Sequence record: GQ981382
From: Shigella phage SP18
Direction: 5' to 3' (one strand)
DNA length: 64,000 nucleotides
Every line of letters begins with the position of its first letter. Position 1 is the first letter of the stretch. Of the stretch, positions 25,812 to 37,414 are shown piece by piece. A program made the translations under genes and the position numbers. Under the pieces are notes generated by a model. The model was given only the letters and a program-made list of their open reading frames with translations. It made no database searches and was not told where the DNA came from.

Positions 25812-27872
25812 CTACGAAAGGAATTTAGGAGGAATAGCTTCCAAATTAATACAACTAGCAAGAATACCAAGACCTTGATTGACTTTCTTCGTTACCCCAG
25901 AGGATGCAAACGATGCAAAGTCAACAGATTCTACTGGCTCTTCTGTTTCCTCGCCCTGATAAACGACAAGCTCACCAGTTTCCATCAACACATCACCATC
26001 ATAGATAACTGCATTTTCATCCAGTTGGTCAGTGGTCTGGATATCAGCTTCCAGCATTTTGACGTTCGCGTTTCCTTTATACGAAGCATCCGTAATTTTG
26101 GTAATCTTAACTACAGTTCCACGTGGAAGAATAACTTCCTGCTCGGATGGGTTGCCTGACAATTCCCCAGGAACAATTACGTTAATTAAGTCTGCCCCAG
26201 AAATTTTCCAACCGACATGAATCATTGCGTTGTCCGGGTTTGCACCTGGGATATTTGGTAAAACAATTTCGTCATCAGCCTGGAAAGATGTCCCGTCGCG
26301 ATAGTCCTGATGAACTGCGGCCATAGCAACGTTCGCCACCCAGCCACCAAAGATAATTGGTTTAAATGATGTTGATACATAGTTCCTAAAATAGAATAAT
26401 TTCGACTGTTTAATTTTATTAAATGTAGGAACGTTTAAATATTGACCACGCCAAAGAGTTGTATTAGGTGGCAACTTATGTCCAATTTCAAAGGCCGAAT
26501 CCAATTCCTTAATTGTTTCGACAACTCTGTCTAGATTTAGGAATTCGGTGTCTTCTTCATAATAATTACCCATCAAATAATTATTAATATCGACATAGTT
26601 GGCTCCACAATAATCTGCAATTGCTTCACGCTGGCCATAATGGAAACGGTTGTCAGTATACCCTGCTGTGAAATTAAGAGTATTTTCTGATGCTTCTTCT
26701 GCAAAGTCTTTAACTGCAACACGAATGGCGCTTGTGTATTCTTCTTCCCAGAGCGTGGCTGCATAAGTGGCTGCATCCAGGTTAGGAGGAGCATCATTCA
26801 TTTTTCTTTCGATAAATGCGGCTTTGCGAAGGTTAAGAATCTCTGCACATGATTCGGCAAAAATCTGCATCTGCTTCATACTACCAACTGGAGCACGTTT
26901 AAGTTCGCGATGCATACGGTTAAAAATTGGGTCAGAGTCTTCAACACGAATTTCTTCTTTCCAAACACCATTTGCACGCATAGCCGTATCTGCTGCGCGC
27001 ATACGAGCCATAGTATTCGTTTCGGAAGGTCGAACAAAAATTTCCAGTTCTTCGTAATCATCGATAAGTTCTGCCGTAGCCGGTCGACTAAACTTAGCAG
27101 CTTCTGCATCAATTTCGTCCCAACCTTCTGGCACGGAATCACTTGGAGCGTACTGGGCTTGTGCAATAGCTCGGCGACTGATTTTAGTTTTCTGGGCAAC
27201 AGCAGCATCGGTCTTTTTGTTTGCTGCATCAATCAGAACTTCGGCTGCGATTTCTTGTTTGGAGACTTGTGCGCCTGTATCTTTATTAGTGAATACATCG
27301 CCGACTTTAGTTTCAACTTTTTGATATTTCTCAGGGACCGGTGGCATACCATCAACCGAAAGCAGGTCAACACCCTTTTTGTACATAATTACATAAGCGT
27401 TCTTTTTACCGAGGCCGGAAGCATTCGGAAGAACATGATAACGCCCGCTGGTTTTCATTTGAATCAGTCGATTCATAATACGAATAACAGCTTGGTCTTG
27501 CCCTTTCATCTTTTTGGATGGGAAACGGAACAAGACTACATCAGGTTTGCCTAGTTTAATGCTTTCCCAGACTGTAACAAAAATCAGGTTAATCGCATCA
27601 AGAGGTTTTTCACCTAGACCACCCTTCAGAGGAACAGCATGGCCATGTGAAGTCCCGGATAACAGGAATACCTCGGCAATTGCATCGCCACGTTTATATT
27701 GTTTAACTGTTTCTTTGCCCGTGAATTGCATCAAACGGGCCATAAGAGAATTGGTCCCAGGAACACCGAATTGCCAAACCTGCGGGACCTTGTATTTTGG
27801 ATTCATATTAATGACAGGATAACCGAAGGCTTCGATATATTTGTCAAAGAGTTCATTTAATTGTTCAGACAT
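25812..27872 (-). CDS. alt: Alt ADP-ribosyltransferase (packaged, modifies host RNA polymerase)
   Basis: 686 aa; N-terminus co-linear with T4 Alt; C-terminal ART motifs (YVDINNYL, FRNYVSTSF, EQEVILPRG = R-S-ExE signature). Confidence 0.9.
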   Translation of the reverse strand: MSEQLNELFDKYIEAFGYPVINMNPKYKVPQVWQFGVPGTNSLMARLMQFTGKETVKQYKRGDAIAEVFLLSGTSHGHAVPLKGGLGEKPLDAINLIFVTVWESIKLGKPDVVLFRFPSKKMKGQDQAVIRIMNRLIQMKTSGRYHVLPNASGLGKKNAYVIMYKKGVDLLSVDGMPPVPEKYQKVETKVGDVFTNKDTGAQVSKQEIAAEVLIDAANKKTDAAVAQKTKISRRAIAQAQYAPSDSVPEGWDEIDAEAAKFSRPATAELIDDYEELEIFVRPSETNTMARMRAADTAMRANGVWKEEIRVEDSDPIFNRMHRELKRAPVGSMKQMQIFAESCAEILNLRKAAFIERKMNDAPPNLDAATYAATLWEEEYTSAIRVAVKDFAEEASENTLNFTAGYTDNRFHYGQREAIADYCGANYVDINNYLMGNYYEEDTEFLNLDRVVETIKELDSAFEIGHKLPPNTTLWRGQYLNVPTFNKIKQSKLFYFRNYVSTSFKPIIFGGWVANVAMAAVHQDYRDGTSFQADDEIVLPNIPGANPDNAMIHVGWKISGADLINVIVPGELSGNPSEQEVILPRGTVVKITKITDASYKGNANVKMLEADIQTTDQLDENAVIYDGDVLMETGELVVYQGEETEEPVESVDFASFASSGVTKKVNQGLGILASCINLEAIPPKFLS

Positions 27873-27881
27873 TTTTAACCC

Positions 27882-29756
27882 TTAATTGAGAAGGTGTACA
27901 AGTTTTTCCATAGACAAATCATAAGAGATTCTGTCATATTTTTTCAAAAGCGAATTTGATTCGTCTATCTGGTCATTTTCTAAGATAGAGCATTCAACGA
28001 GAATGTATTTACCCATCGAACCCATCATGCCAGCTGTAGCACCATAGACTTTATCAATCTTAAGCATTGTTCCACGTGGAAGAATAACTTCGGTTTCAAC
28101 GGACCAGTTTGCCAGGTCACCAGGAATAACTACCTTGATATTTTCTGCACCTTTGATAATCATACCAATCTTGATTGTAGGTTTCGCCGAACCAGTTGCA
28201 CTTTTAATAGTTGCATCGATTGCCCCATCATCGATATCACTCGATAATGCATTTGGGTCAAGGTTCGCAGCGGTGTGGCCCATACGACCGAAAATATTTG
28301 GCGCCAGAGATGTACTCGCAAACATAGGAAGATACATCGTTTTATTTTTTATGGAATTAATTGCCATATCGGTTGGCATGACTTGAGCACGGTAGATGAT
28401 AGTTCCTTTTGGAAGCTTAACACCGTTTTCAAATACTTTATCCATATCGGAAATCATTTTGATTTCGCTTTCTTTTGCGTCAGCTTTCCCTAGCAGGAAA
28501 TTATTGATTGCAGTATATTTTCCGCGAGTATACGCCTTAATTGCTTCGGCCTGGTCTTCAGTTATTTCAGGGTTGTCGGAGATATGAAATAATGGTTGGA
28601 TGGCCTTGGTGTAAATTTCATCTGCGATAATACGAATAGCTTCTTTAGTCTTATCTTCGCGCGCCCAGGTCCCCACAATGGAGTCGTCAAGCAACATATC
28701 AGCAACTCTACGCAATGTATCAACAGGATTCTTTGAGGCCCGCAGGACGTTCGAAAACTCACTTATTTTGTGTTCCATGTCAACTTCTTTAAGAGCATTA
28801 AACACATCCATGGCTACACGAGTTTTTGTCTTATCTTCACCAACACCACCTTGTGCAACTAAATCAAAATAGTCTGCATACTCATCACCCGCACGGTCGA
28901 TTACTTTTATTGAAGCTTTAGCTATCTGACTTTCTCTGGCATCATCTGCTGAATGCACTGCGCTACTGGTCGAGAGTTTTGTATAAATCTCTTTGTGCTC
29001 TGGTGAGAATTTAGCAAGGCCAGTTGGTTCGTTCCCCGAATACAATGCGTTAATAGCTGCGCGTTTAGAAAACTTGGTTTTAACAACAACTGCCTGGTCT
29101 GTACGTTTTTCTTCAACCTTTGCAATAGAGGCCGCAATAGCTTCATTCTTGGTAACAGTTTCGCCGGTGGCTTTGTCTACATAAACATCACCGACTTTCG
29201 ATTCCACTTTTGTGTACAATTCGGTATTGATGCCAGGAATTCCGGCGATAGATTCAATTGGTTTGGATTTACGATAAATCAATACGTAAGTATGTTTACC
29301 CGTGTACTGATACATATCATCCAGAACTTTGAACTGACCGCCGGCACGGGCCATAATAAGCCGAGCAAGAACACGCTGAATAGTTCGTTCTTGTCCCTTC
29401 ATTTTGCGGGTCGGGAAGCGGAACATAATTGCATCCATTTTCATCAGTTTTACTTGTTCGTAAACTACATCAAAAATGGATTTAATTGCTCCAATCGGGT
29501 TATCACCAAGACCACCTTTAAGAATAGCTGGAGTACCGTTTGAATTTAATGACATCAAAATAACGTGTGCATACTTATCGCCAGTTTTGACCTGTTTAAT
29601 AGCATCGCCTTCGGATGCGTAAGACACCATACGAGCAATAAGATTATCATTCCCCGGGACCTGGATATTCCAAATCTGTGGAACTTTTGACTTTGAAAGG
29701 TTAATGGCCGGGATATTAGATTCCCCTTCAAAAACCTCTGACAATAATTCGGTCAT
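27882..29756 (-). CDS. Alt-like ADP-ribosyltransferase, second paralogue
   Basis: 624 aa; same architecture with independent ART motifs (YTAINNFL, MFASTSLAP, ETEVILPRG) and shared central block (TELYTKVESKVGDVYVDKATG). Confidence 0.88.
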   Translation of the reverse strand: MTELLSEVFEGESNIPAINLSKSKVPQIWNIQVPGNDNLIARMVSYASEGDAIKQVKTGDKYAHVILMSLNSNGTPAILKGGLGDNPIGAIKSIFDVVYEQVKLMKMDAIMFRFPTRKMKGQERTIQRVLARLIMARAGGQFKVLDDMYQYTGKHTYVLIYRKSKPIESIAGIPGINTELYTKVESKVGDVYVDKATGETVTKNEAIAASIAKVEEKRTDQAVVVKTKFSKRAAINALYSGNEPTGLAKFSPEHKEIYTKLSTSSAVHSADDARESQIAKASIKVIDRAGDEYADYFDLVAQGGVGEDKTKTRVAMDVFNALKEVDMEHKISEFSNVLRASKNPVDTLRRVADMLLDDSIVGTWAREDKTKEAIRIIADEIYTKAIQPLFHISDNPEITEDQAEAIKAYTRGKYTAINNFLLGKADAKESEIKMISDMDKVFENGVKLPKGTIIYRAQVMPTDMAINSIKNKTMYLPMFASTSLAPNIFGRMGHTAANLDPNALSSDIDDGAIDATIKSATGSAKPTIKIGMIIKGAENIKVVIPGDLANWSVETEVILPRGTMLKIDKVYGATAGMMGSMGKYILVECSILENDQIDESNSLLKKYDRISYDLSMEKLVHLLN

Positions 29757-29792
29757 ATTGTTTTCCTTATAAAATATGATGTATTTATACGA

Positions 29793-29815
29793 AAAAGGGC
29801 CGAAGCCCTTTTGTT
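29793..29815 (-). terminator. Terminator hairpin downstream of DNA ligase
   Basis: AAGGGC-CGAA-GCCCTT flanked by A/T runs. Confidence 0.6.
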
Positions 29816-31355
29816 ATTTTAATCCAGTCTTTGACCAGTCGCCAAATACATCTTCGAATGTGTCTGCATGGTCTTTATCGAAACGGAACCCTTTGATAAT
29901 CGGCAGGAACAATGCAACCGTATTATCTTTACGAGTCTCGGAAGTCACCCAACCATTACATTCACAGTCAGCAATCATTCCAACCAATTCACCTTTACGA
30001 GCTTTAACCATCAAGGCTTCACGGTCCAGTTCGTGACGTTCATCAATCGGAATAGAAACCCATTTTTTGGTTTTCTTATCTTTCACTTGAGTTGTGTCTT
30101 TAAAACCAGACCCACAGTTATTTGTAATCTTGCCACAAGAAGAACGAAGCACAACACCGCCAATTTTATCTGGGTCTTTATCGTGCTCGTAATATCCAAT
30201 GATTTCCATTGCAATGTCAATTACTTCTTTGAACTTATACAAGTTCTTTGAGCGCTTGTTTTCCCAAATCGATGCCATATTCTTAAGGATAATACCTTCA
30301 AGACCTTCATCAACATATTTCTTATAGATAACTTTCGCTTCATCGAGATTGTTAACAACATGGTTTTCAATCAGAATCATGCGGTCGAAACCATGCAGCA
30401 CCACATTATCTGCAATCATCTTTTCCAGAACAGCAAAACGCACATCGTATTTCAACGGATTGAGAATCTTAACATCAGAATAGACTTCAATCAGCGGAAC
30501 ATAATCCCAAACCTGGAATTTCATGCAAGAAGCTTCTGCTGCAGAAATAGTTCCTTTCAATGATTTGTTTGCCAGACCATTTGAAAAGGTTCTTGATTCC
30601 GCGAATTCTGTGAATTCTTTTGCCTTACTAAGCTCAGGCATATCGTCAAAAAGGAAGCTCAAACCATCATTCTGGGGAGCTATTTTCTGTTCATGATATA
30701 CTAACTCGCCGTCAATCAAAACGCCCTCAGGATGTCTCTCACGCGCTTCACGGGTAGCTTCAATCAATTCCTTTTTAAGGAGGTCAAGCTTGAGGTATTC
30801 GTTGCCAGCTCGGGATAACAATCGAACATCATCCAACTCATCGCCACGAACTTCTGCAAAACACCGAGCGCCGTCGGCTTTCAATTGCGCAAAGGCCGGG
30901 AACTTAATGTTCTTGGCAATACCGGCTTCATCATAGGAAGAAGCGAGCATCTGCGGTTGTTCAGGAATTAAACCTTTCCAAACCTTATTTGCAATTGATA
31001 CGGATGCCCCGCATTCCAGGTCACGCATCATAACACGCCGCAGGACTTCAACATCTGCTTTTTTACCATCAGCAATATAGCCAGATAATTCCTCGATTGC
31101 AGCATTACCTGTTAATTTACGAGAGGCTAATGTGAATTCAATAAAGTCAAGCATATCATCGATATTCAGCATACCAAAGCTTTGAGTCGTTGTCCCAGGT
31201 TTTGGCCATTTCTTAATATAGAACTGGATGCCTTTGGAATATGTCAAACGATACACACGTTTGAGGGTTTCATTGTCAGAATACGATTCCAGAATAGCTT
31301 GTTTCTCTTTAGTAGAATCGGTTGCAGCAATTTCATTTAAAATATCTAAAATCAT
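29814..31355 (-). CDS. 30: ATP-dependent DNA ligase gp30
   Basis: KADGAR adenylation motif and T4 ligase-like blocks (LEGIILKN, KFQVWDYVPL); start at the ATG with AAGAGGTG RBS. Confidence 0.93.
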   Translation of the reverse strand: MILDILNEIAATDSTKEKQAILESYSDNETLKRVYRLTYSKGIQFYIKKWPKPGTTTQSFGMLNIDDMLDFIEFTLASRKLTGNAAIEELSGYIADGKKADVEVLRRVMMRDLECGASVSIANKVWKGLIPEQPQMLASSYDEAGIAKNIKFPAFAQLKADGARCFAEVRGDELDDVRLLSRAGNEYLKLDLLKKELIEATREARERHPEGVLIDGELVYHEQKIAPQNDGLSFLFDDMPELSKAKEFTEFAESRTFSNGLANKSLKGTISAAEASCMKFQVWDYVPLIEVYSDVKILNPLKYDVRFAVLEKMIADNVVLHGFDRMILIENHVVNNLDEAKVIYKKYVDEGLEGIILKNMASIWENKRSKNLYKFKEVIDIAMEIIGYYEHDKDPDKIGGVVLRSSCGKITNNCGSGFKDTTQVKDKKTKKWVSIPIDERHELDREALMVKARKGELVGMIADCECNGWVTSETRKDNTVALFLPIIKGFRFDKDHADTFEDVFGDWSKTGLK

Positions 31356-31364
31356 AATCACCTC

Positions 31365-31646
31365 TTAGTCGTTGGCTCTATTATATGCCACATCTTCCAA
31401 AAGCAAATCCAGACGCTTATGATAAGAGAACACAAATCTCATTCGCCCATCTGGTTTAAACTTAGACATAAAGTGAACATAGATAAACCCTTGCTCAACA
31501 CATTCACGCCAAACCGGATGGTCTTTGGCTGGGTTAATATCAAACGAGTAATCATGATTCACATGACGAATAAACTGATTAACATGACCATAATCCATGG
31601 TAGTAGTAGGACCATAATCAGAAATAGTATGAACGACAAACATCAA
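31365..31646 (-). CDS. Hypothetical protein (30.1-like position)
   Basis: 93-aa ORF between ligase and the HAD-like gene, with abutting start/stop. Confidence 0.55.
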   Translation of the reverse strand: MMFVVHTISDYGPTTTMDYGHVNQFIRHVNHDYSFDINPAKDHPVWRECVEQGFIYVHFMSKFKPDGRMRFVFSYHKRLDLLLEDVAYNRAND

Positions 31647-32467
31647 TTACCCCCTTGGCCGCCGGTCGGTTGATTGTACCAATATTCAATGCCAGTACCT
31701 ACGCATGGGCCATATTGATATGGATATGCTGGATTATAACCAGGAGTCCATGGTTGACCTGGCTGCCAGCCTTGTTGCATTTGTTGTTGAAGACGGCGAG
31801 TTTCACGAAACAGTTCGTCCAGTTTACGGAGTTCATCAGGGGTGAATTCTGGTTTGACCGGTTCATCTTTGTGTTTCAGTTTAAGCTGTCCAGCAACATC
31901 GTCCCAATTAAAAACTTTGGAAGCTGTTTTAGGAATAGCATCACGTTCGCCACGGGCCATCCAATAAACCGGGACTTCAAGGATTTCACTCGCATGGTCG
32001 CAATGGTGTGCAAGGTCATCAATATAACAAACGACATTATATTTGGTCTTCGCTTTCTGGAATAACTCTTCTTTAGAGGCTGTATGGCCACACATCATCA
32101 CTTCTTTAAATGCACCAGGGAACAAAGCATTCAGGTTGAATTGACGATTCAGACGGGCATCAATGGAATCACCCAGAGCTGTAACGGCCACAAAATCATA
32201 TTGCTCTTTGAGGTTATTAATAACCCTTAACGCATCCGCATAAGGAGACAAATAGCGAATAAAATCTGAACAGTTATATTTCTCAATCAACTGTGCTCCC
32301 AACTCTTCATCACAATTGAACAGTTTACCAGGGGTCACAAATTTTTCATCCTGAATCATCTTAAGGATATGTTCCAGGGGTAAATTATATTTTTGGGCGA
32401 AATAAGGCAAGCCAGACTGCCATGACAAACATACGCCATCAATATCGGTTAAAATAACGGGTTTCAT
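31643..32467 (-). CDS. HAD-superfamily hydrolase-like protein (30.2-like position), Gln/Pro/Tyr-rich C-terminus
   Basis: N-terminal MKPVILTDIDGV (DxDGx motif I) and later YIDD (motif IV); low-complexity tail QQMQQGWQPGQPWTPGYNPAYPYQYG. Confidence 0.65.
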   Translation of the reverse strand: MKPVILTDIDGVCLSWQSGLPYFAQKYNLPLEHILKMIQDEKFVTPGKLFNCDEELGAQLIEKYNCSDFIRYLSPYADALRVINNLKEQYDFVAVTALGDSIDARLNRQFNLNALFPGAFKEVMMCGHTASKEELFQKAKTKYNVVCYIDDLAHHCDHASEILEVPVYWMARGERDAIPKTASKVFNWDDVAGQLKLKHKDEPVKPEFTPDELRKLDELFRETRRLQQQMQQGWQPGQPWTPGYNPAYPYQYGPCVGTGIEYWYNQPTGGQGGN

Positions 32468-32931
32468 AATGCATCTCTCAATTGGTTAAGTATGTCAATA
32501 AATTCTTGTTCAGTCAATATTGTATCATGAACAGTAAGGTGGCTCGCCATCGAATGCTTTAAAACTTTGCCCTTTGTAGCTTGTAATGCGTCGCGGAATC
32601 CTTTGTTTTGGAGCGCTGCTTCAAAATATGCATTTGTATACAACTCTTTCCATGATGTAGAGTATCTTGAAAAGGGAATTCCAAGCCAGAAAAGCGTCCC
32701 ACGGTCCGCAGCTCTTGCATAAGCTCTTCCAGTTTGCTGGGCGGTCAATCCGGACATCCCAAATATACGTTTTTGTTGTTCACAATTTCTCACCTTACAC
32801 CCCTGTAGGAAGCCTTCAAGACCTCCAAACTGGATGCCATCCATAACAAAAGGCCATTTAGCAAAGTTACTTAATGCACATGACGGCCATGGGAAATTGC
32901 TTCTGATTTCTAACTCAGACATCTTTGACAC
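32464..32931 (-). CDS. NADAR / YbiA-like (DUF1768) protein (30.3-like position)
   Basis: LSNFAKWPFVMDGIQFGGLEGFLQGCK matches the YbiA core (FSNFAAWP..DG......EHYFQAQK); later ALQATKGKVLKH matches the YbiA C-terminal helix. Recognised by eye, not by search. Confidence 0.6.
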   Translation of the reverse strand: MSKMSELEIRSNFPWPSCALSNFAKWPFVMDGIQFGGLEGFLQGCKVRNCEQQKRIFGMSGLTAQQTGRAYARAADRGTLFWLGIPFSRYSTSWKELYTNAYFEAALQNKGFRDALQATKGKVLKHSMASHLTVHDTILTEQEFIDILNQLRDAL

Positions 32932-33127
32932 TGATAATATCTACATCAGCCCAATGACCATAACCAGGTAGACGGTCTTCAATAGATAAGCTGTTATGCT
33001 TTTTAAGGATAATCTTTTTAATAACTTTTTCTTTGTTATCTTGAAGATAAGGACTATGGTCAATAACTGAATAAGTAACTTCAACCATTTCTGTTCCCAA
33101 AATTTTCTGAATCAGTTTCTTAAACAT
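32915..33127 (-). CDS. Hypothetical protein
   Basis: 70-aa ORF, co-oriented and tightly packed in the early-gene cluster. Confidence 0.45.
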   Translation of the reverse strand: MFKKLIQKILGTEMVEVTYSVIDHSPYLQDNKEKVIKKIILKKHNSLSIEDRLPGYGHWADVDIISVKDV

Positions 33128-34537: not shown

Positions 34538-34558
34538 AAAGACTCCCGAAGGAGTCAT
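34538..34558 (-). terminator. Terminator hairpin overlapping the stop of the 34555-34905 gene
   Basis: GACTCC-CGAA-GGAGTC followed on the minus strand by a nine-T run. Confidence 0.65.
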
Positions 34559-34905
34559 TTGATAATTGTTTTATAGGTCACTTCAGCTGTGTAGAAGTTT
34601 TTGGCTTTCATTACAATAGCTTCACCCTTTGGATTCGCCTCAATCCATTCTCTGGCACGTTTATGTGCTTCCAGTTCAGTAAGCAAACCAGAGCGTTGAC
34701 AGCCACGGTCTTGTGTACCAGCTTCACTTAAGAAAGCGACTAGATAAATTGCGTCGTCATACGGTTTAGCAGGTGGGATGTACACCGGAGGACTCGGTGG
34801 GACATACGCAGCAGGATGATGACCCGGAATTTCATTGTATGGACCAGGCGCGGCATAAGATGCTCCACGTGGTGTAGTAAACGTGTGATTGTATCTATCG
34901 TTCAT
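34555..34905 (-). CDS. Hypothetical protein with Pro/Tyr-rich N-terminus
   Basis: 116-aa ORF; hairpin plus T-run terminator overlaps its stop on the minus strand. Confidence 0.5.
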   Translation of the reverse strand: MNDRYNHTFTTPRGASYAAPGPYNEIPGHHPAAYVPPSPPVYIPPAKPYDDAIYLVAFLSEAGTQDRGCQRSGLLTELEAHKRAREWIEANPKGEAIVMKAKNFYTAEVTYKTIIK

Positions 34906-35901: not shown

Positions 35902-35909
35902 TATTTATA
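35902..35909 (-). promoter_or_regulatory. Late promoter motif TATAAATA (minus strand) upstream of rIII
   Basis: Reverse complement of plus-strand TATTTATA; lies in the 31-rIII interval. Confidence 0.5.
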
Positions 35910-36599: not shown

Positions 36600-36833
36600 T
36601 TATTCCAAAACAGTTTTAATGGTTGTTGCATTACGCTCTTTTAGAGCTCTTAATAGGCTATGGCAATTTTCAAGAATAGGCACCGTTTTATAGTTCATTT
36701 CGGGGCGAACCCACTCGGATTTATAGTACGATTTCCAACGAGAGAAAAAGTACTTTTTATATTCTACTGAATAGGCTACCAGGTTTTCACCTTTTGAGTT
36801 CAGACCTGAAAACTTAACTAGACGAAATTTCAT
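36600..36833 (-). CDS. Hypothetical protein (31.2-like position)
   Basis: 77-aa ORF with abutting start/stop. Confidence 0.5.
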   Translation of the reverse strand: MKFRLVKFSGLNSKGENLVAYSVEYKKYFFSRWKSYYKSEWVRPEMNYKTVPILENCHSLLRALKERNATTIKTVLE

Positions 36834-37414
36834 TATTCACCACAAAATTCGTTAATGTTTTCCCAGTTCAATTTGTCTAGACTACGCTTAGGCACATTGA
36901 ACACCTCAATTCCCGCGTTCTTCAGGATATCATCCCAACCAGGAATATTCTTATCATACGTTTCACAGTAAACCAATTTCTTGATTCCTGATTGAGAAAT
37001 TGCCTTTGCACAATCAGGGCAAGGAGAAAGCGTCACATACATAGTAGCGCCTTCAATTGACGAACCCATTCTGGCTGCGAACAGAATCGCATTAAGCTCG
37101 GCATGAATTTCGTTGTTCTTTGACCAGGCCGAATGAGCTTCGCGATGAGCTTTCGCCAATACAAAACGGTCAACCTGACTGAATCTCACGCATTCTGACT
37201 TATGACCAGGGATGAGAACTGGTTTAGGTTTATTCAGTAACCAACCTTGCTCTTCCGCATGCTCGCAACAGTTAACCCCACCCGCAGGGGAACCATTATA
37301 CCCTGTAGAAATAATGCGACCATTCTTTTCAATAACAGCTCCCACTTTCCAGGAGCAACATTTGGATTCTTGAGATACAAGGTATGCGATTTGCAGAACA
37401 GTAGTTGGTTTCAT
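36833..37414 (-). CDS. cd: dCMP deaminase
   Basis: 193 aa, the T4 Cd length; zinc-binding deaminase motifs (CCEHAEEQ, HAELNAILFAA, PCPDCAKAI). Confidence 0.93.
   Translation of the reverse strand: MKPTTVLQIAYLVSQESKCCSWKVGAVIEKNGRIISTGYNGSPAGGVNCCEHAEEQGWLLNKPKPVLIPGHKSECVRFSQVDRFVLAKAHREAHSAWSKNNEIHAELNAILFAARMGSSIEGATMYVTLSPCPDCAKAISQSGIKKLVYCETYDKNIPGWDDILKNAGIEVFNVPKRSLDKLNWENINEFCGE

What the first reader, a model, noticed from the sequence alone, without database searches (positions are those of the whole stretch)
31643..32931. NADAR/YbiA-like protein and HAD-like hydrolase immediately downstream of the alt pair and DNA ligase
The 155-aa protein carries the YbiA/DUF1768 core (LSNFAKWPF..DG......EGFLQGCK). 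NADAR domains have been reported to remove ADP-ribose from guanine bases. Together with two ADP-ribosyltransferases, a ligase and a HAD-type phosphatase-like protein in one co-oriented cluster, this suggests a write/erase ADP-ribosylation module, possibly protecting phage DNA from DarT-like DNA ADP-ribosylating defences or tuning Alt activity. This is a hypothesis from domain content only.
Basis: inference. Interest (0 to 1): 0.65.

Follow-up and report, generated by a model that had tools for sequence, protein, structure and literature searches.

The report
Known phage anti-DarT enzyme plus phosphatase
The small protein is this phage's copy of T4 gp30.3/AdfN, an enzyme already shown to strip defensive ADP-ribose off phage DNA. 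Its neighbour is a conserved phosphatase of unknown substrate, and the proposed "write/erase module" with the Alt enzymes is not supported.

Summary
The window is a T4-like coliphage; the nearest record is vB_EcoM_VR20. The region is the ordinary T4 block cd-31-rIII-30.9…30.1-30(ligase)-alt, all on the minus strand.

**The 155-aa ORF.** It really starts at the ATG at 32922 and is 152 aa long. It is the ortholog of T4 gp30.3, with 85% identity and no gaps.
- Pfam matches it to PF08010 (E = 2.6e-64).
- The catalytic residues E36, K43 and H123 and the C-terminal helix are all present.
- T4 gp30.3 was published as AdfN, a guanine-ADP-ribose DNA glycohydrolase that defeats DarTG1.

So the NADAR call and the anti-DarT idea are right, but they are already known.

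**The 274-aa neighbour.** It is gp30.2, a HAD phosphatase with a C1 cap and all four catalytic motifs. Its closest subfamily is the NT5C-type deoxyribonucleotidases. Its substrate is unknown.

**The "module" fails.**
- The alt pair lies behind a terminator hairpin and has its own late promoter (TATAAATA).
- NADAR and HAD separate in Vibrio, Rhizobium and Brevundimonas phages.
- In published T4 transposon data under DarTG1, only 30.3 is strongly depleted (log2FC −7.25). Gene 30.2 (−0.12) and alt (−0.01) are unaffected.

Interest is low.

The parts
32464..32922 (-). adfN / gene 30.3 ortholog: a 152-aa NADAR-fold DNA (guanine-N2) ADP-ribosylglycohydrolase. The ORF finder's 155-aa version begins at an upstream GTG at 32931.
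31643..32467 (-). Gene 30.2 ortholog: a 274-aa HAD-superfamily phosphatase. Residues 1 to about 195 form a C1-capped, NT5C-like domain. They are followed by a helix and a P/Q/G/Y-rich tail ending in GTGIEYWYNQPT. Its start overlaps the adfN stop by 4 nt (ATGA).
31365..31643 (-). Gene 30.1 ortholog (DUF3045), function unknown. Its likely ATG overlaps the 30.2 stop by 1 nt (TGATG), as in T4.
   Evidence: PF11243 at E = 6e-17. phrog_2054. Sequence read. T4 layout.
29814..31355 (-). Gene 30, ATP-dependent DNA ligase. The probable start is the ATG at 31355; the ORF finder lists a GTG at 31361.
   Evidence: PF01068 at E = 2.3e-28. phrog_114 at 1.1e-156. 70.6% identity to T4 ligase from query residue 3.
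29793..29812 (-). G+C-rich hairpin (AAAAGGGCTTCGGCCCTTTTT) immediately after the ligase stop. It is a terminator-like element that closes the 30.x-ligase unit.
29782..29789 (-). T4 late-promoter consensus TATAAATA, 26 nt upstream of the first alt paralog's ATG.
   Evidence: 22 matches in the window against 4.8 expected, and only two on the minus strand within 25-37 kb. Sequence.
27882..29756 (-). Alt-like ADP-ribosyltransferase paralog B (624 aa).
   Evidence: PF03496 at E = 2.5e-15. phrog_802 at 2.3e-199. 33% identity to T4 Alt.
25812..27872 (-). Alt-like ADP-ribosyltransferase paralog A (686 aa).
   Evidence: PF03496 at E = 5.8e-20. phrog_802 at 5.3e-225. 36% identity to T4 Alt and 32% to paralog B.

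Best explanation
The finding covers two adjacent, translationally coupled genes of the standard T4-type 30.x block.

**Gene 30.3 (32464-32922, minus strand).** It encodes the ortholog of T4 AdfN, a stand-alone NADAR-fold glycohydrolase.
- When a host DarT1 toxin ADP-ribosylates guanine (N2) in phage DNA to block replication, AdfN hydrolyses the N-glycosidic bond. This releases ADP-ribose and restores replicable DNA.
- E36 and H123 position the distal ribose, with H123 taking the place of the Glu/Asp found in cellular NADARs. K43 holds the diphosphate.
- That activity was shown for T4 AdfN. Here it is inferred from 85% identity, conserved catalytic residues, an intact C-terminal helix and the fold.

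**Gene 30.2 (31643-32467).** It encodes a HAD phosphatase. D8 is the nucleophile, D10 the general acid/base, T96 and K132 bind phosphate, and D150/D151 bind Mg2+.
- The helical C1 cap implies a small phosphomonoester substrate.
- Its closest subfamily is the NT5C 5'(3')-deoxyribonucleotidases, so a (deoxy)nucleoside monophosphate is the best guess. This is inferred, not shown.
- It is not required for AdfN's anti-DarTG1 function in T4.

**Ligase and the two alt genes.** They are neighbours by inherited gene order. The alt pair is a separate late transcription unit, consistent with what is established for T4 Alt (my own knowledge), a late protein that is packaged in the head.
For: **Identity of gp30.3**
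- Pfam, PHROG and BLASTP matches.
- Family-wide invariance of E36, H123 and other positions.
- A profile of the family finds E. coli YbiA as the best PDB hit (E = 0.005), aligned on the LSNFA…EGFLQ.xK core.

**Published function of the T4 ortholog**
- ΔadfN T4 and T2 fail to plaque on DarTG1 hosts. E36A and K43A mutations weaken rescue. Purified protein removes ADPr from DarT1-modified DNA. The activity is specific for G-ADPr, not T-ADPr (PMC11825919; PMC11125620).
- The His-for-Glu substitution of phage NADARs has been described (PMC11543638).
- T4 transposon sequencing under DarTG1 gives gene 30.3 log2FC −7.25, adjusted p = 0.

**gp30.2**
- HAD motifs, fold, and NT5C affinity.
- Some GenBank records already call the pair "putative phosphatase | NADAR domain containing protein".

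**Separate alt unit:**
Against: - No experiment was done on this phage's own allele. It differs from T4 AdfN at 23 of 152 positions.
- The window protein does not itself reach Pfam or TIGRFAM NADAR thresholds.
- T4 AdfN does not rescue DarT1 toxicity in uninfected cells and needs an unidentified T-even factor, so the mechanism is incomplete.
Confidence: 0.88

Rival explanations
1. NADAR, HAD, ligase and the two Alt ADP-ribosyltransferases form one co-regulated write/erase ADP-ribosylation module, in which the NADAR erases or tunes what Alt writes.
For: The genes are co-oriented and adjacent. Iyer et al. 2022 noted that NADARs of T4-like phages are encoded near ARTs.
Against: - This is the inherited T4 gene order.
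- A hairpin plus the late-promoter consensus TATAAATA separates alt from the ligase unit.
- AdfN-like genes in Rhizobium RL2RES, Brevundimonas Bambus and Vibrio V07 have no HAD, ligase or Alt beside them.
- In T4 under DarTG1, alt has log2FC −0.01, alt.1 +0.02 and 30.2 −0.12, against −7.25 for 30.3.
- Alt modifies protein arginines (established knowledge). All tested NADAR activities are on guanine-ADPr in DNA.
Confidence: 0.04
2. gp30.2 is the unidentified T-even "potentiating factor" that T4 AdfN needs for full activity. It might work by binding or localising AdfN, or by clearing a phosphorylated product.
For: - The stop and start codons overlap (ATGA), which implies translational coupling.
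- The two genes are adjacent or near each other in coliphage, Acinetobacter, Klebsiella and Aeromonas T4-likes.
- Johannesman et al. infer an unknown T-even factor.
- RB69-type and T4-type phages both carry 30.2.
Against: - 71 TA sites in T4 30.2 show no depletion under DarTG1 (log2FC −0.12, p = 0.61), whereas 30.3 insertions vanish.
- In Vibrio phage CZ01 the HAD gene stays with the ligase and no AdfN-like gene lies within about 5 kb of it. In another schizo-T4 phage, V07, the AdfN-like gene sits beside gene 47 with no HAD or ligase.
- Tight overlaps are the rule throughout this gene block.
Confidence: 0.05
3. The NADAR acts mainly on small molecules rather than on DNA. Candidates are soluble ADP-ribose derivatives used as immune signals, or riboflavin-pathway intermediates as for YbiA.
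For: Iyer et al. [quoted passage not shown] There is a weak TIGR02464 (riboflavin-intermediate N-glycosidase) hit at E = 0.064. YbiA is the best structural match.
Against: There is direct biochemical and genetic evidence for DNA G-ADPr hydrolysis and DarTG1 counter-defence by the T4 ortholog. The catalytic Glu of the YbiA type is replaced by His.
Confidence: 0.07
4. gp30.2 is a DNA-end phosphatase working with the adjacent DNA ligase, like the HAD 3'-phosphatase domain of T4 Pnkp, rather than a nucleotide phosphatase.
Against: - The model has a roughly 75-residue helical C1 cap (helices between residues 16 and 86). In HAD enzymes a cap goes with small-molecule substrates, and DNA-end phosphatases are capless (established HAD classification).
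- Relatives hit NT5C rather than PNK-type models.
- W16 aligns with a Phe of the cytosolic deoxyribonucleotidase. I recall that Phe as base-stacking, but did not check it.
Confidence: 0.1

Closest known systems
T4 gp30.3 = AdfN (anti-DarT factor NADAR); Johannesman et al. 2025, PMC11825919; Toxins 2024, PMC11125620
   Same: - Same gene position: 8-nt overlap with 30.4 and 4-nt overlap with 30.2.
- Same length (152 aa), 85% identity, no gaps.
- E36, K43 and H123 and the C-terminal helix are all present.
- Same predicted fold.
   Different: There are 23 substitutions, mostly conservative. The allele itself is untested. The host phage belongs to the VR20/VR7 group rather than to Tequatrovirus.
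Cellular NADARs: DarG1 antitoxin (8bat), Phytophthora NADAR (8bau), E. coli YbiA (2b3w)
   Different: - Only 13-20% identity.
- The third catalytic position is His rather than Asp or Glu.
- It lacks the N-terminal extension of DarT1-linked NADARs.
- It is an orphan with no cognate toxin.
- It is ineffective as an antitoxin in uninfected cells.
NT5C-type 5'(3')-deoxyribonucleotidases (Pfam PF06941; e.g. 2jao, 6g2n, 3bwv), compared with gp30.2
   Different: - The window protein is below Pfam thresholds.
- It has an extra C-terminal helix and a low-complexity tail.
- Substrate and phenotype are unknown.
RB69 gp30.3 (naturally defective allele)
   Same: Same locus and same family.
   Different: RB69 has a frameshift that removes the last 15 residues (the C-terminal helix) and is sensitive to DarTG1. 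The window allele is full-length.

Membership tests
NADAR superfamily, phage gp30.3/AdfN subfamily | NADAR alpha+beta fold | tested here: met
   [not shown]
NADAR superfamily, phage gp30.3/AdfN subfamily | N-terminal catalytic Glu and Lys seven residues apart (T4 E36 and K43; PnNADAR E43 and K50) | tested here: met
   The GGLEGFLQGCK segment is identical to T4. E36 is invariant and position 43 is K, R or H across 14 diverse members. The segment aligns to the YbiA core.
NADAR superfamily, phage gp30.3/AdfN subfamily | Histidine in the last strand in place of the YbiA Glu or BC4488 Asp | tested here: met
   H123 is invariant in alignments A1 and A2. The feature is described in PMC11543638 and PMC11125620.
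NADAR superfamily, phage gp30.3/AdfN subfamily | Intact C-terminal helix, which is needed for full activity and is lost in RB69 | tested here: met
   The alignment to T4 runs to residue 152. The model has a helix at 138-151.
NADAR superfamily, phage gp30.3/AdfN subfamily | Significant match to a curated family model | tested here: met
   PF08010 Phage_30_3 scores 215.6 bits against a cut-off of 36. The general NADAR models are not reached: there is no PF08719 hit, and TIGR02464 scores 13.5 bits against a cut-off of 73.7.
NADAR superfamily, phage gp30.3/AdfN subfamily | Guanine-ADPr DNA glycohydrolase activity and DarTG1 counter-defence | not testable with these tools
   Shown only for the T4 ortholog.
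HAD superfamily (gp30.2) | Four catalytic motifs: I DxDx[TV], II S/T, III K, IV DD | tested here: met
   D8-I-D10-G-V, T96, K132 and D150-D151. These are invariant or nearly invariant in 37 sequences. D8, D10 and K132 remain invariant, and D151 nearly so, in 41 more distant relatives.
HAD superfamily (gp30.2) | Rossmannoid HAD fold with a cap | tested here: met
   [not shown]
HAD superfamily (gp30.2) | Pfam gathering threshold | tested here: not met
   HAD_2 scores 14.1 bits against a cut-off of 23.8. The family is too divergent for single-sequence detection.
NT5C 5'(3')-deoxyribonucleotidase subfamily (gp30.2) | Sequence membership in PF06941 and nucleotidase activity | tested here: inconclusive
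   - 5 of 37 close homologs and 16 of 41 distant homologs (best E = 4.7e-9) hit NT5C. The window protein itself does not.
- The best PDB sequence hit is 2jao at E = 0.083.
- Activity is not testable here.
Write/erase ADP-ribosylation operon (NADAR + ART) | Co-transcription of the eraser with the writer | tested here: not met
   A terminator-like hairpin (29812-29793) and the late-promoter consensus (29789-29782) separate the ligase unit from alt.
Write/erase ADP-ribosylation operon (NADAR + ART) | Linkage conserved beyond vertically inherited synteny, and genetic interdependence | tested here: not met
   Neighbourhoods in Rhizobium, Brevundimonas and Vibrio phages lack the partners. T4 transposon sequencing under DarTG1 shows no effect of alt or 30.2.

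The most novel reading that the evidence does not exclude
The uncharacterised part is gp30.2. It is an NT5C-like HAD phosphatase with an intact active site and is found in about 1,450 phage records. It stays next to the DNA ligase even where the NADAR has moved away, and it has no phenotype in any published T4 screen that I could read.

The most novel reading still open is that it is a conditionally required enzyme. One possibility is a counter-defence or nucleotide-pool sanitiser that dephosphorylates a defence-generated or non-canonical (deoxy)nucleotide. Another is a redundant helper of AdfN whose loss is masked in T4. In either case the conserved C-terminal GTGIEYxxxQPT peptide could serve as a docking motif.
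Probability: 0.12. Interest if true: 0.5.

Novelty: already known. Interest (0 to 1): 0.15.

Why it matters
There is little new here.

In practical terms, this phage carries an intact adfN allele and is unlike RB69, so it is predicted to resist DarTG1. The adjacent gp30.2 remains one of the widely conserved T4-type enzymes without an assigned substrate. The data assembled here (active-site conservation, NT5C affinity, linkage to ligase, no role against DarTG1) narrow what to test.

Tried and rejected
- **Single-sequence PDB searches.** For both proteins they gave only noise or marginal hits. Profiles were needed.
- **Direct Pfam NADAR or HAD membership.** The window proteins do not reach it.
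- **NCBIfam.** It gave only a sub-threshold TIGR02464 hit for gp30.3 and nothing for gp30.2 or gp30.1.
- **Sigma-70 promoter scan.** The result was at chance level (31 found against 29.8 expected) and was not used.
- **Literature searches for gp30.2 or phage deoxyribonucleotidases.** They returned nothing specific.
- **Supplements of PMC11825919.** They are not held.
- **gp30.2 as AdfN's missing co-factor.** I considered this and rejected it as unlikely on the T4 transposon data.
- **T4 alt.-1/alt.-2 as remnants of the window's second alt paralog.** I considered this and rejected it. They are recent copies of T4 alt itself, at 56-62% identity against 36-42%.
- **Rfam and tRNA scans of the window.** They found nothing.
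- **Protein ADP-ribose as a NADAR substrate.** I did not find any published test of NADARs on arginine-ADPr in the papers read.

Full report
**Context.** The window is a T4-like coliphage. The 1.9 kb around the finding is 95.5% identical to Escherichia phage vB_EcoM_VR20, and 249 phage records match. From about 25.8 to 37.4 kb every real gene is on the minus strand.

The order in the direction of transcription is as follows:
- cd (36833-37414), then 31.2, 31.1 and 31.
- rIII, then a 30.9-like ORF.
- A 116-aa insert.
- 30.8-like, 30.7, 30.6, 30.5 and 30.4.
- 30.3 (32464-32922), 30.2 (31643-32467) and 30.1 (31365-31643).
- DNA ligase (29814-31355).
- alt paralog B (27882-29756) and alt paralog A (25812-27872).

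This is the T4 order cd…30.3-30.2-30.1-30-alt. The two genes of the finding therefore lie upstream of ligase and alt in the direction of transcription, not downstream.

**Observation check.** Both ORFs are real.

The 155-aa ORF:
- It matches Pfam PF08010 (Bacteriophage protein GP30.3) at E = 2.6e-64 and phrog_652 at 5.6e-51.
- Its biological start is the ATG at 32922, giving 152 aa. This start overlaps the stop of the gp30.4-like ORF by 8 nt, exactly as in T4.
- BLASTP against T4 gp30.3 gives 129 of 152 identities with no gaps.
- The quoted motif is present and is identical to T4 in the catalytic segment GGLEGFLQGCK.

The 274-aa ORF:
- It matches phrog_420 at 1.3e-78.
- It is 66% identical to T4 gp30.2, with about 85% identity over the first 195 residues and a divergent tail (tblastn identities).

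**Is the small protein a NADAR?** Sequence evidence alone is weak.
- There is no hit to Pfam NADAR.
- TIGR02464 (the YbiA-type N-glycosidase model) scores E = 0.064.
- A profile of 14 diverse family members finds E. coli YbiA (2b3w) as its best PDB hit at E = 0.005. The alignment runs over LSNFA..PF..DG…EGFLQ..K.

Across homologs from Escherichia, Acinetobacter, Klebsiella, Aeromonas, Vibrio, Rhizobium and Brevundimonas phages, E36 and H123 are invariant and position 43 is K, R or H.

**This is already known.**
- De Souza and Aravind's classification, as cited in PMC11543638, already separated phage NADARs by a His that replaces the catalytic Glu or Asp.
- Toxins 2024 (PMC11125620) names these "gp30.3 proteins". 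It shows that the T4 enzyme hydrolyses guanine-ADPr DNA but not thymine-ADPr DNA in vitro, yet does not rescue DarT1 toxicity in uninfected cells.
- Johannesman et al. 2025 (PMC11825919) renamed gene 30.3 adfN. ΔadfN T4 and T2 cannot plaque on DarTG1 hosts. Ectopic AdfN rescues RB69, whose own allele is frameshifted and lacks the C-terminal helix. E36A and K43A mutations weaken rescue. The purified protein removes ADPr from DarT1-modified DNA. Full activity needs an unidentified T-even factor.
- The HIDEN-SEQ T4 transposon screen shows gene 30.3 insertions falling from 261.0 to 0.7 mean reads under DarTG1 (log2FC −7.25, adjusted p = 0).

The window allele keeps E36, K43, H123 and the full C-terminal helix. 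I therefore infer the same activity. This is an inference; it was not tested on this allele.

**The HAD-like neighbour.**
- In a 37-sequence alignment, D8, D10 and G11 (motif I, DIDGV), K132 (motif III) and D150-D151 (motif IV) are invariant. T96 (motif II) is nearly invariant.
- The AF2 model is very confident over residues 1-200 (pLDDT above 90). It shows a Rossmannoid core with a helical cap inserted after motif I.
- A profile search of 1.84 billion representative proteins finds 1,479 relatives.
- Of 41 distant relatives scanned, 16 hit Pfam NT5C (best E = 4.7e-9), 6 hit Hydrolase and 5 hit HAD_2.
- The only PDB sequence hit is the deoxyribonucleotidase 2jao. There W16 aligns with the Phe eight residues after the nucleophile.

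I conclude that gp30.2 is an active HAD phosphatase of NT5C-like type. It probably acts on a small phosphomonoester such as a (deoxy)nucleoside monophosphate. The substrate is a guess. A few GenBank records already label the pair "putative phosphatase | NADAR domain containing protein", or label gp30.2 as "5' nucleotidase".

**Is there a write/erase module?** Four lines of evidence say no.

1. *Transcription.* Directly after the ligase stop there is a G+C-rich hairpin with a T-run (29812-29793). It is followed by the T4 late-promoter consensus TATAAATA (29789-29782), 26 nt before the first alt ATG. The motif is enriched in the window (22 matches against 4.8 expected), and this is one of only two minus-strand copies in the region. 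The 30.x genes and ligase are packed with overlapping stops and starts. The alt pair is thus a separate late unit. This fits T4 Alt being made late and packaged in the head (established T4 knowledge).

2. *Phylogenetic linkage.*
   - gp30.3-like and gp30.2-like genes occur in about 1,509 and 1,452 phage records respectively, with the same host spread. Both are thus widespread across Straboviridae.
   - They lie between gene 31 and ligase in Acinetobacter, Klebsiella and Aeromonas T4-likes.
   - AdfN-like genes in Rhizobium phage RL2RES, Brevundimonas phage Bambus and Vibrio phage V07 have no HAD, ligase or Alt within 4 kb.
   - In Vibrio phage CZ01 the HAD gene remains upstream of ligase and Alt without a NADAR.
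   - In PA5oct a HAD homolog stands alone.
   - The HAD gene therefore tracks the ligase, not the NADAR.

3. *Genetics in T4.* Under DarTG1, log2FC is −0.12 for 30.2 (71 sites, p = 0.61), −0.01 for 30.1, −0.01 for alt and +0.02 for alt.1. Only 30.4 is also significantly depleted (−1.79, adjusted p = 0.014), which I read as a probable polar effect on 30.3. Gene 30.2 also has no phenotype on LB or M9.

4. *Chemistry.* Every NADAR activity reported in the papers I read is on guanine-ADPr in DNA. I found no test on arginine-ADPr, which is the Alt product.

**Verdict.**
- The module idea is not supported.
- The only open question is what gp30.2 does.

Noticed in passing
window 25812-29756 (minus strand): The phage has two full-length, deeply diverged Alt paralogs (686 and 624 aa). 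They are 32% identical to each other and 36% and 33% identical to T4 Alt. They sit in tandem behind one late-promoter consensus. T4 has a single alt plus short remnants (alt.-1, alt.-2) that are recent copies of its own alt (56-62% identity). No alt.1 homolog is present here.
   Followed up: partly
window 34555-34905 (minus strand), hairpins at 34943-34924 and 34556-34541: A 116-aa ORF with a proline-rich N-terminus (phrog_17531, unknown function) is inserted between the 30.9-like and 30.8-like genes. It is bracketed by two strong terminator-like hairpins. It has no counterpart in the T4 cd-alt region or in the other loci fetched. It looks like a self-contained inserted cassette.
   Followed up: partly
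window 31643-31883 (C-terminal ~80 residues of gp30.2): After the HAD domain comes a confident helix (residues 210-233) and then a low-confidence P/Q/G/Y-rich tail ending in GTGIEYWYNQPT. A similar G(T)GIEYxxxQPT peptide ends 14 of 116 homologs, despite very variable linkers. About half of the homologs lack the tail altogether. It may be a docking motif, and the partner is unknown.
   Followed up: partly
window 32559-32720 (minus strand, inside adfN in another frame): A 53-aa out-of-frame internal ORF corresponds to T4's annotated 30.3' (60% identity to its C-terminal 53 residues), but it lacks the first 22 codons of the T4 version. I did not test whether it is expressed or is just a by-product of the conserved adfN sequence.
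   Followed up: no
database homologs of gp30.3 (P0013-P0022): Several phage and metagenome records carry truncated gp30.3 fragments (86-121 aa) or apparent fusions with neighbouring-gene domains (PF11097, PF06919, PF06019). This suggests recurrent frameshifts or mis-calls at this locus, like the natural RB69 defect.
   Followed up: no
T4 gene 30.4 (window equivalent 32915-33127): In the published T4 DarTG1 transposon screen, insertions in 30.4 are also significantly depleted (log2FC −1.79, adjusted p = 0.014). Gene 30.5 shows −3.0 but is not significant. Because 30.4 overlaps the adfN start by 8 nt, a polar or translational-coupling effect is the simplest reading. The same overlap is conserved in the window.
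   Followed up: partly
window 35902-35909 (minus strand): A second minus-strand late-promoter consensus TATAAATA lies just upstream of the rIII homolog. The ORF finder extends rIII to 129 aa, while the region homologous to T4 rIII is residues 48-129.
   Followed up: no
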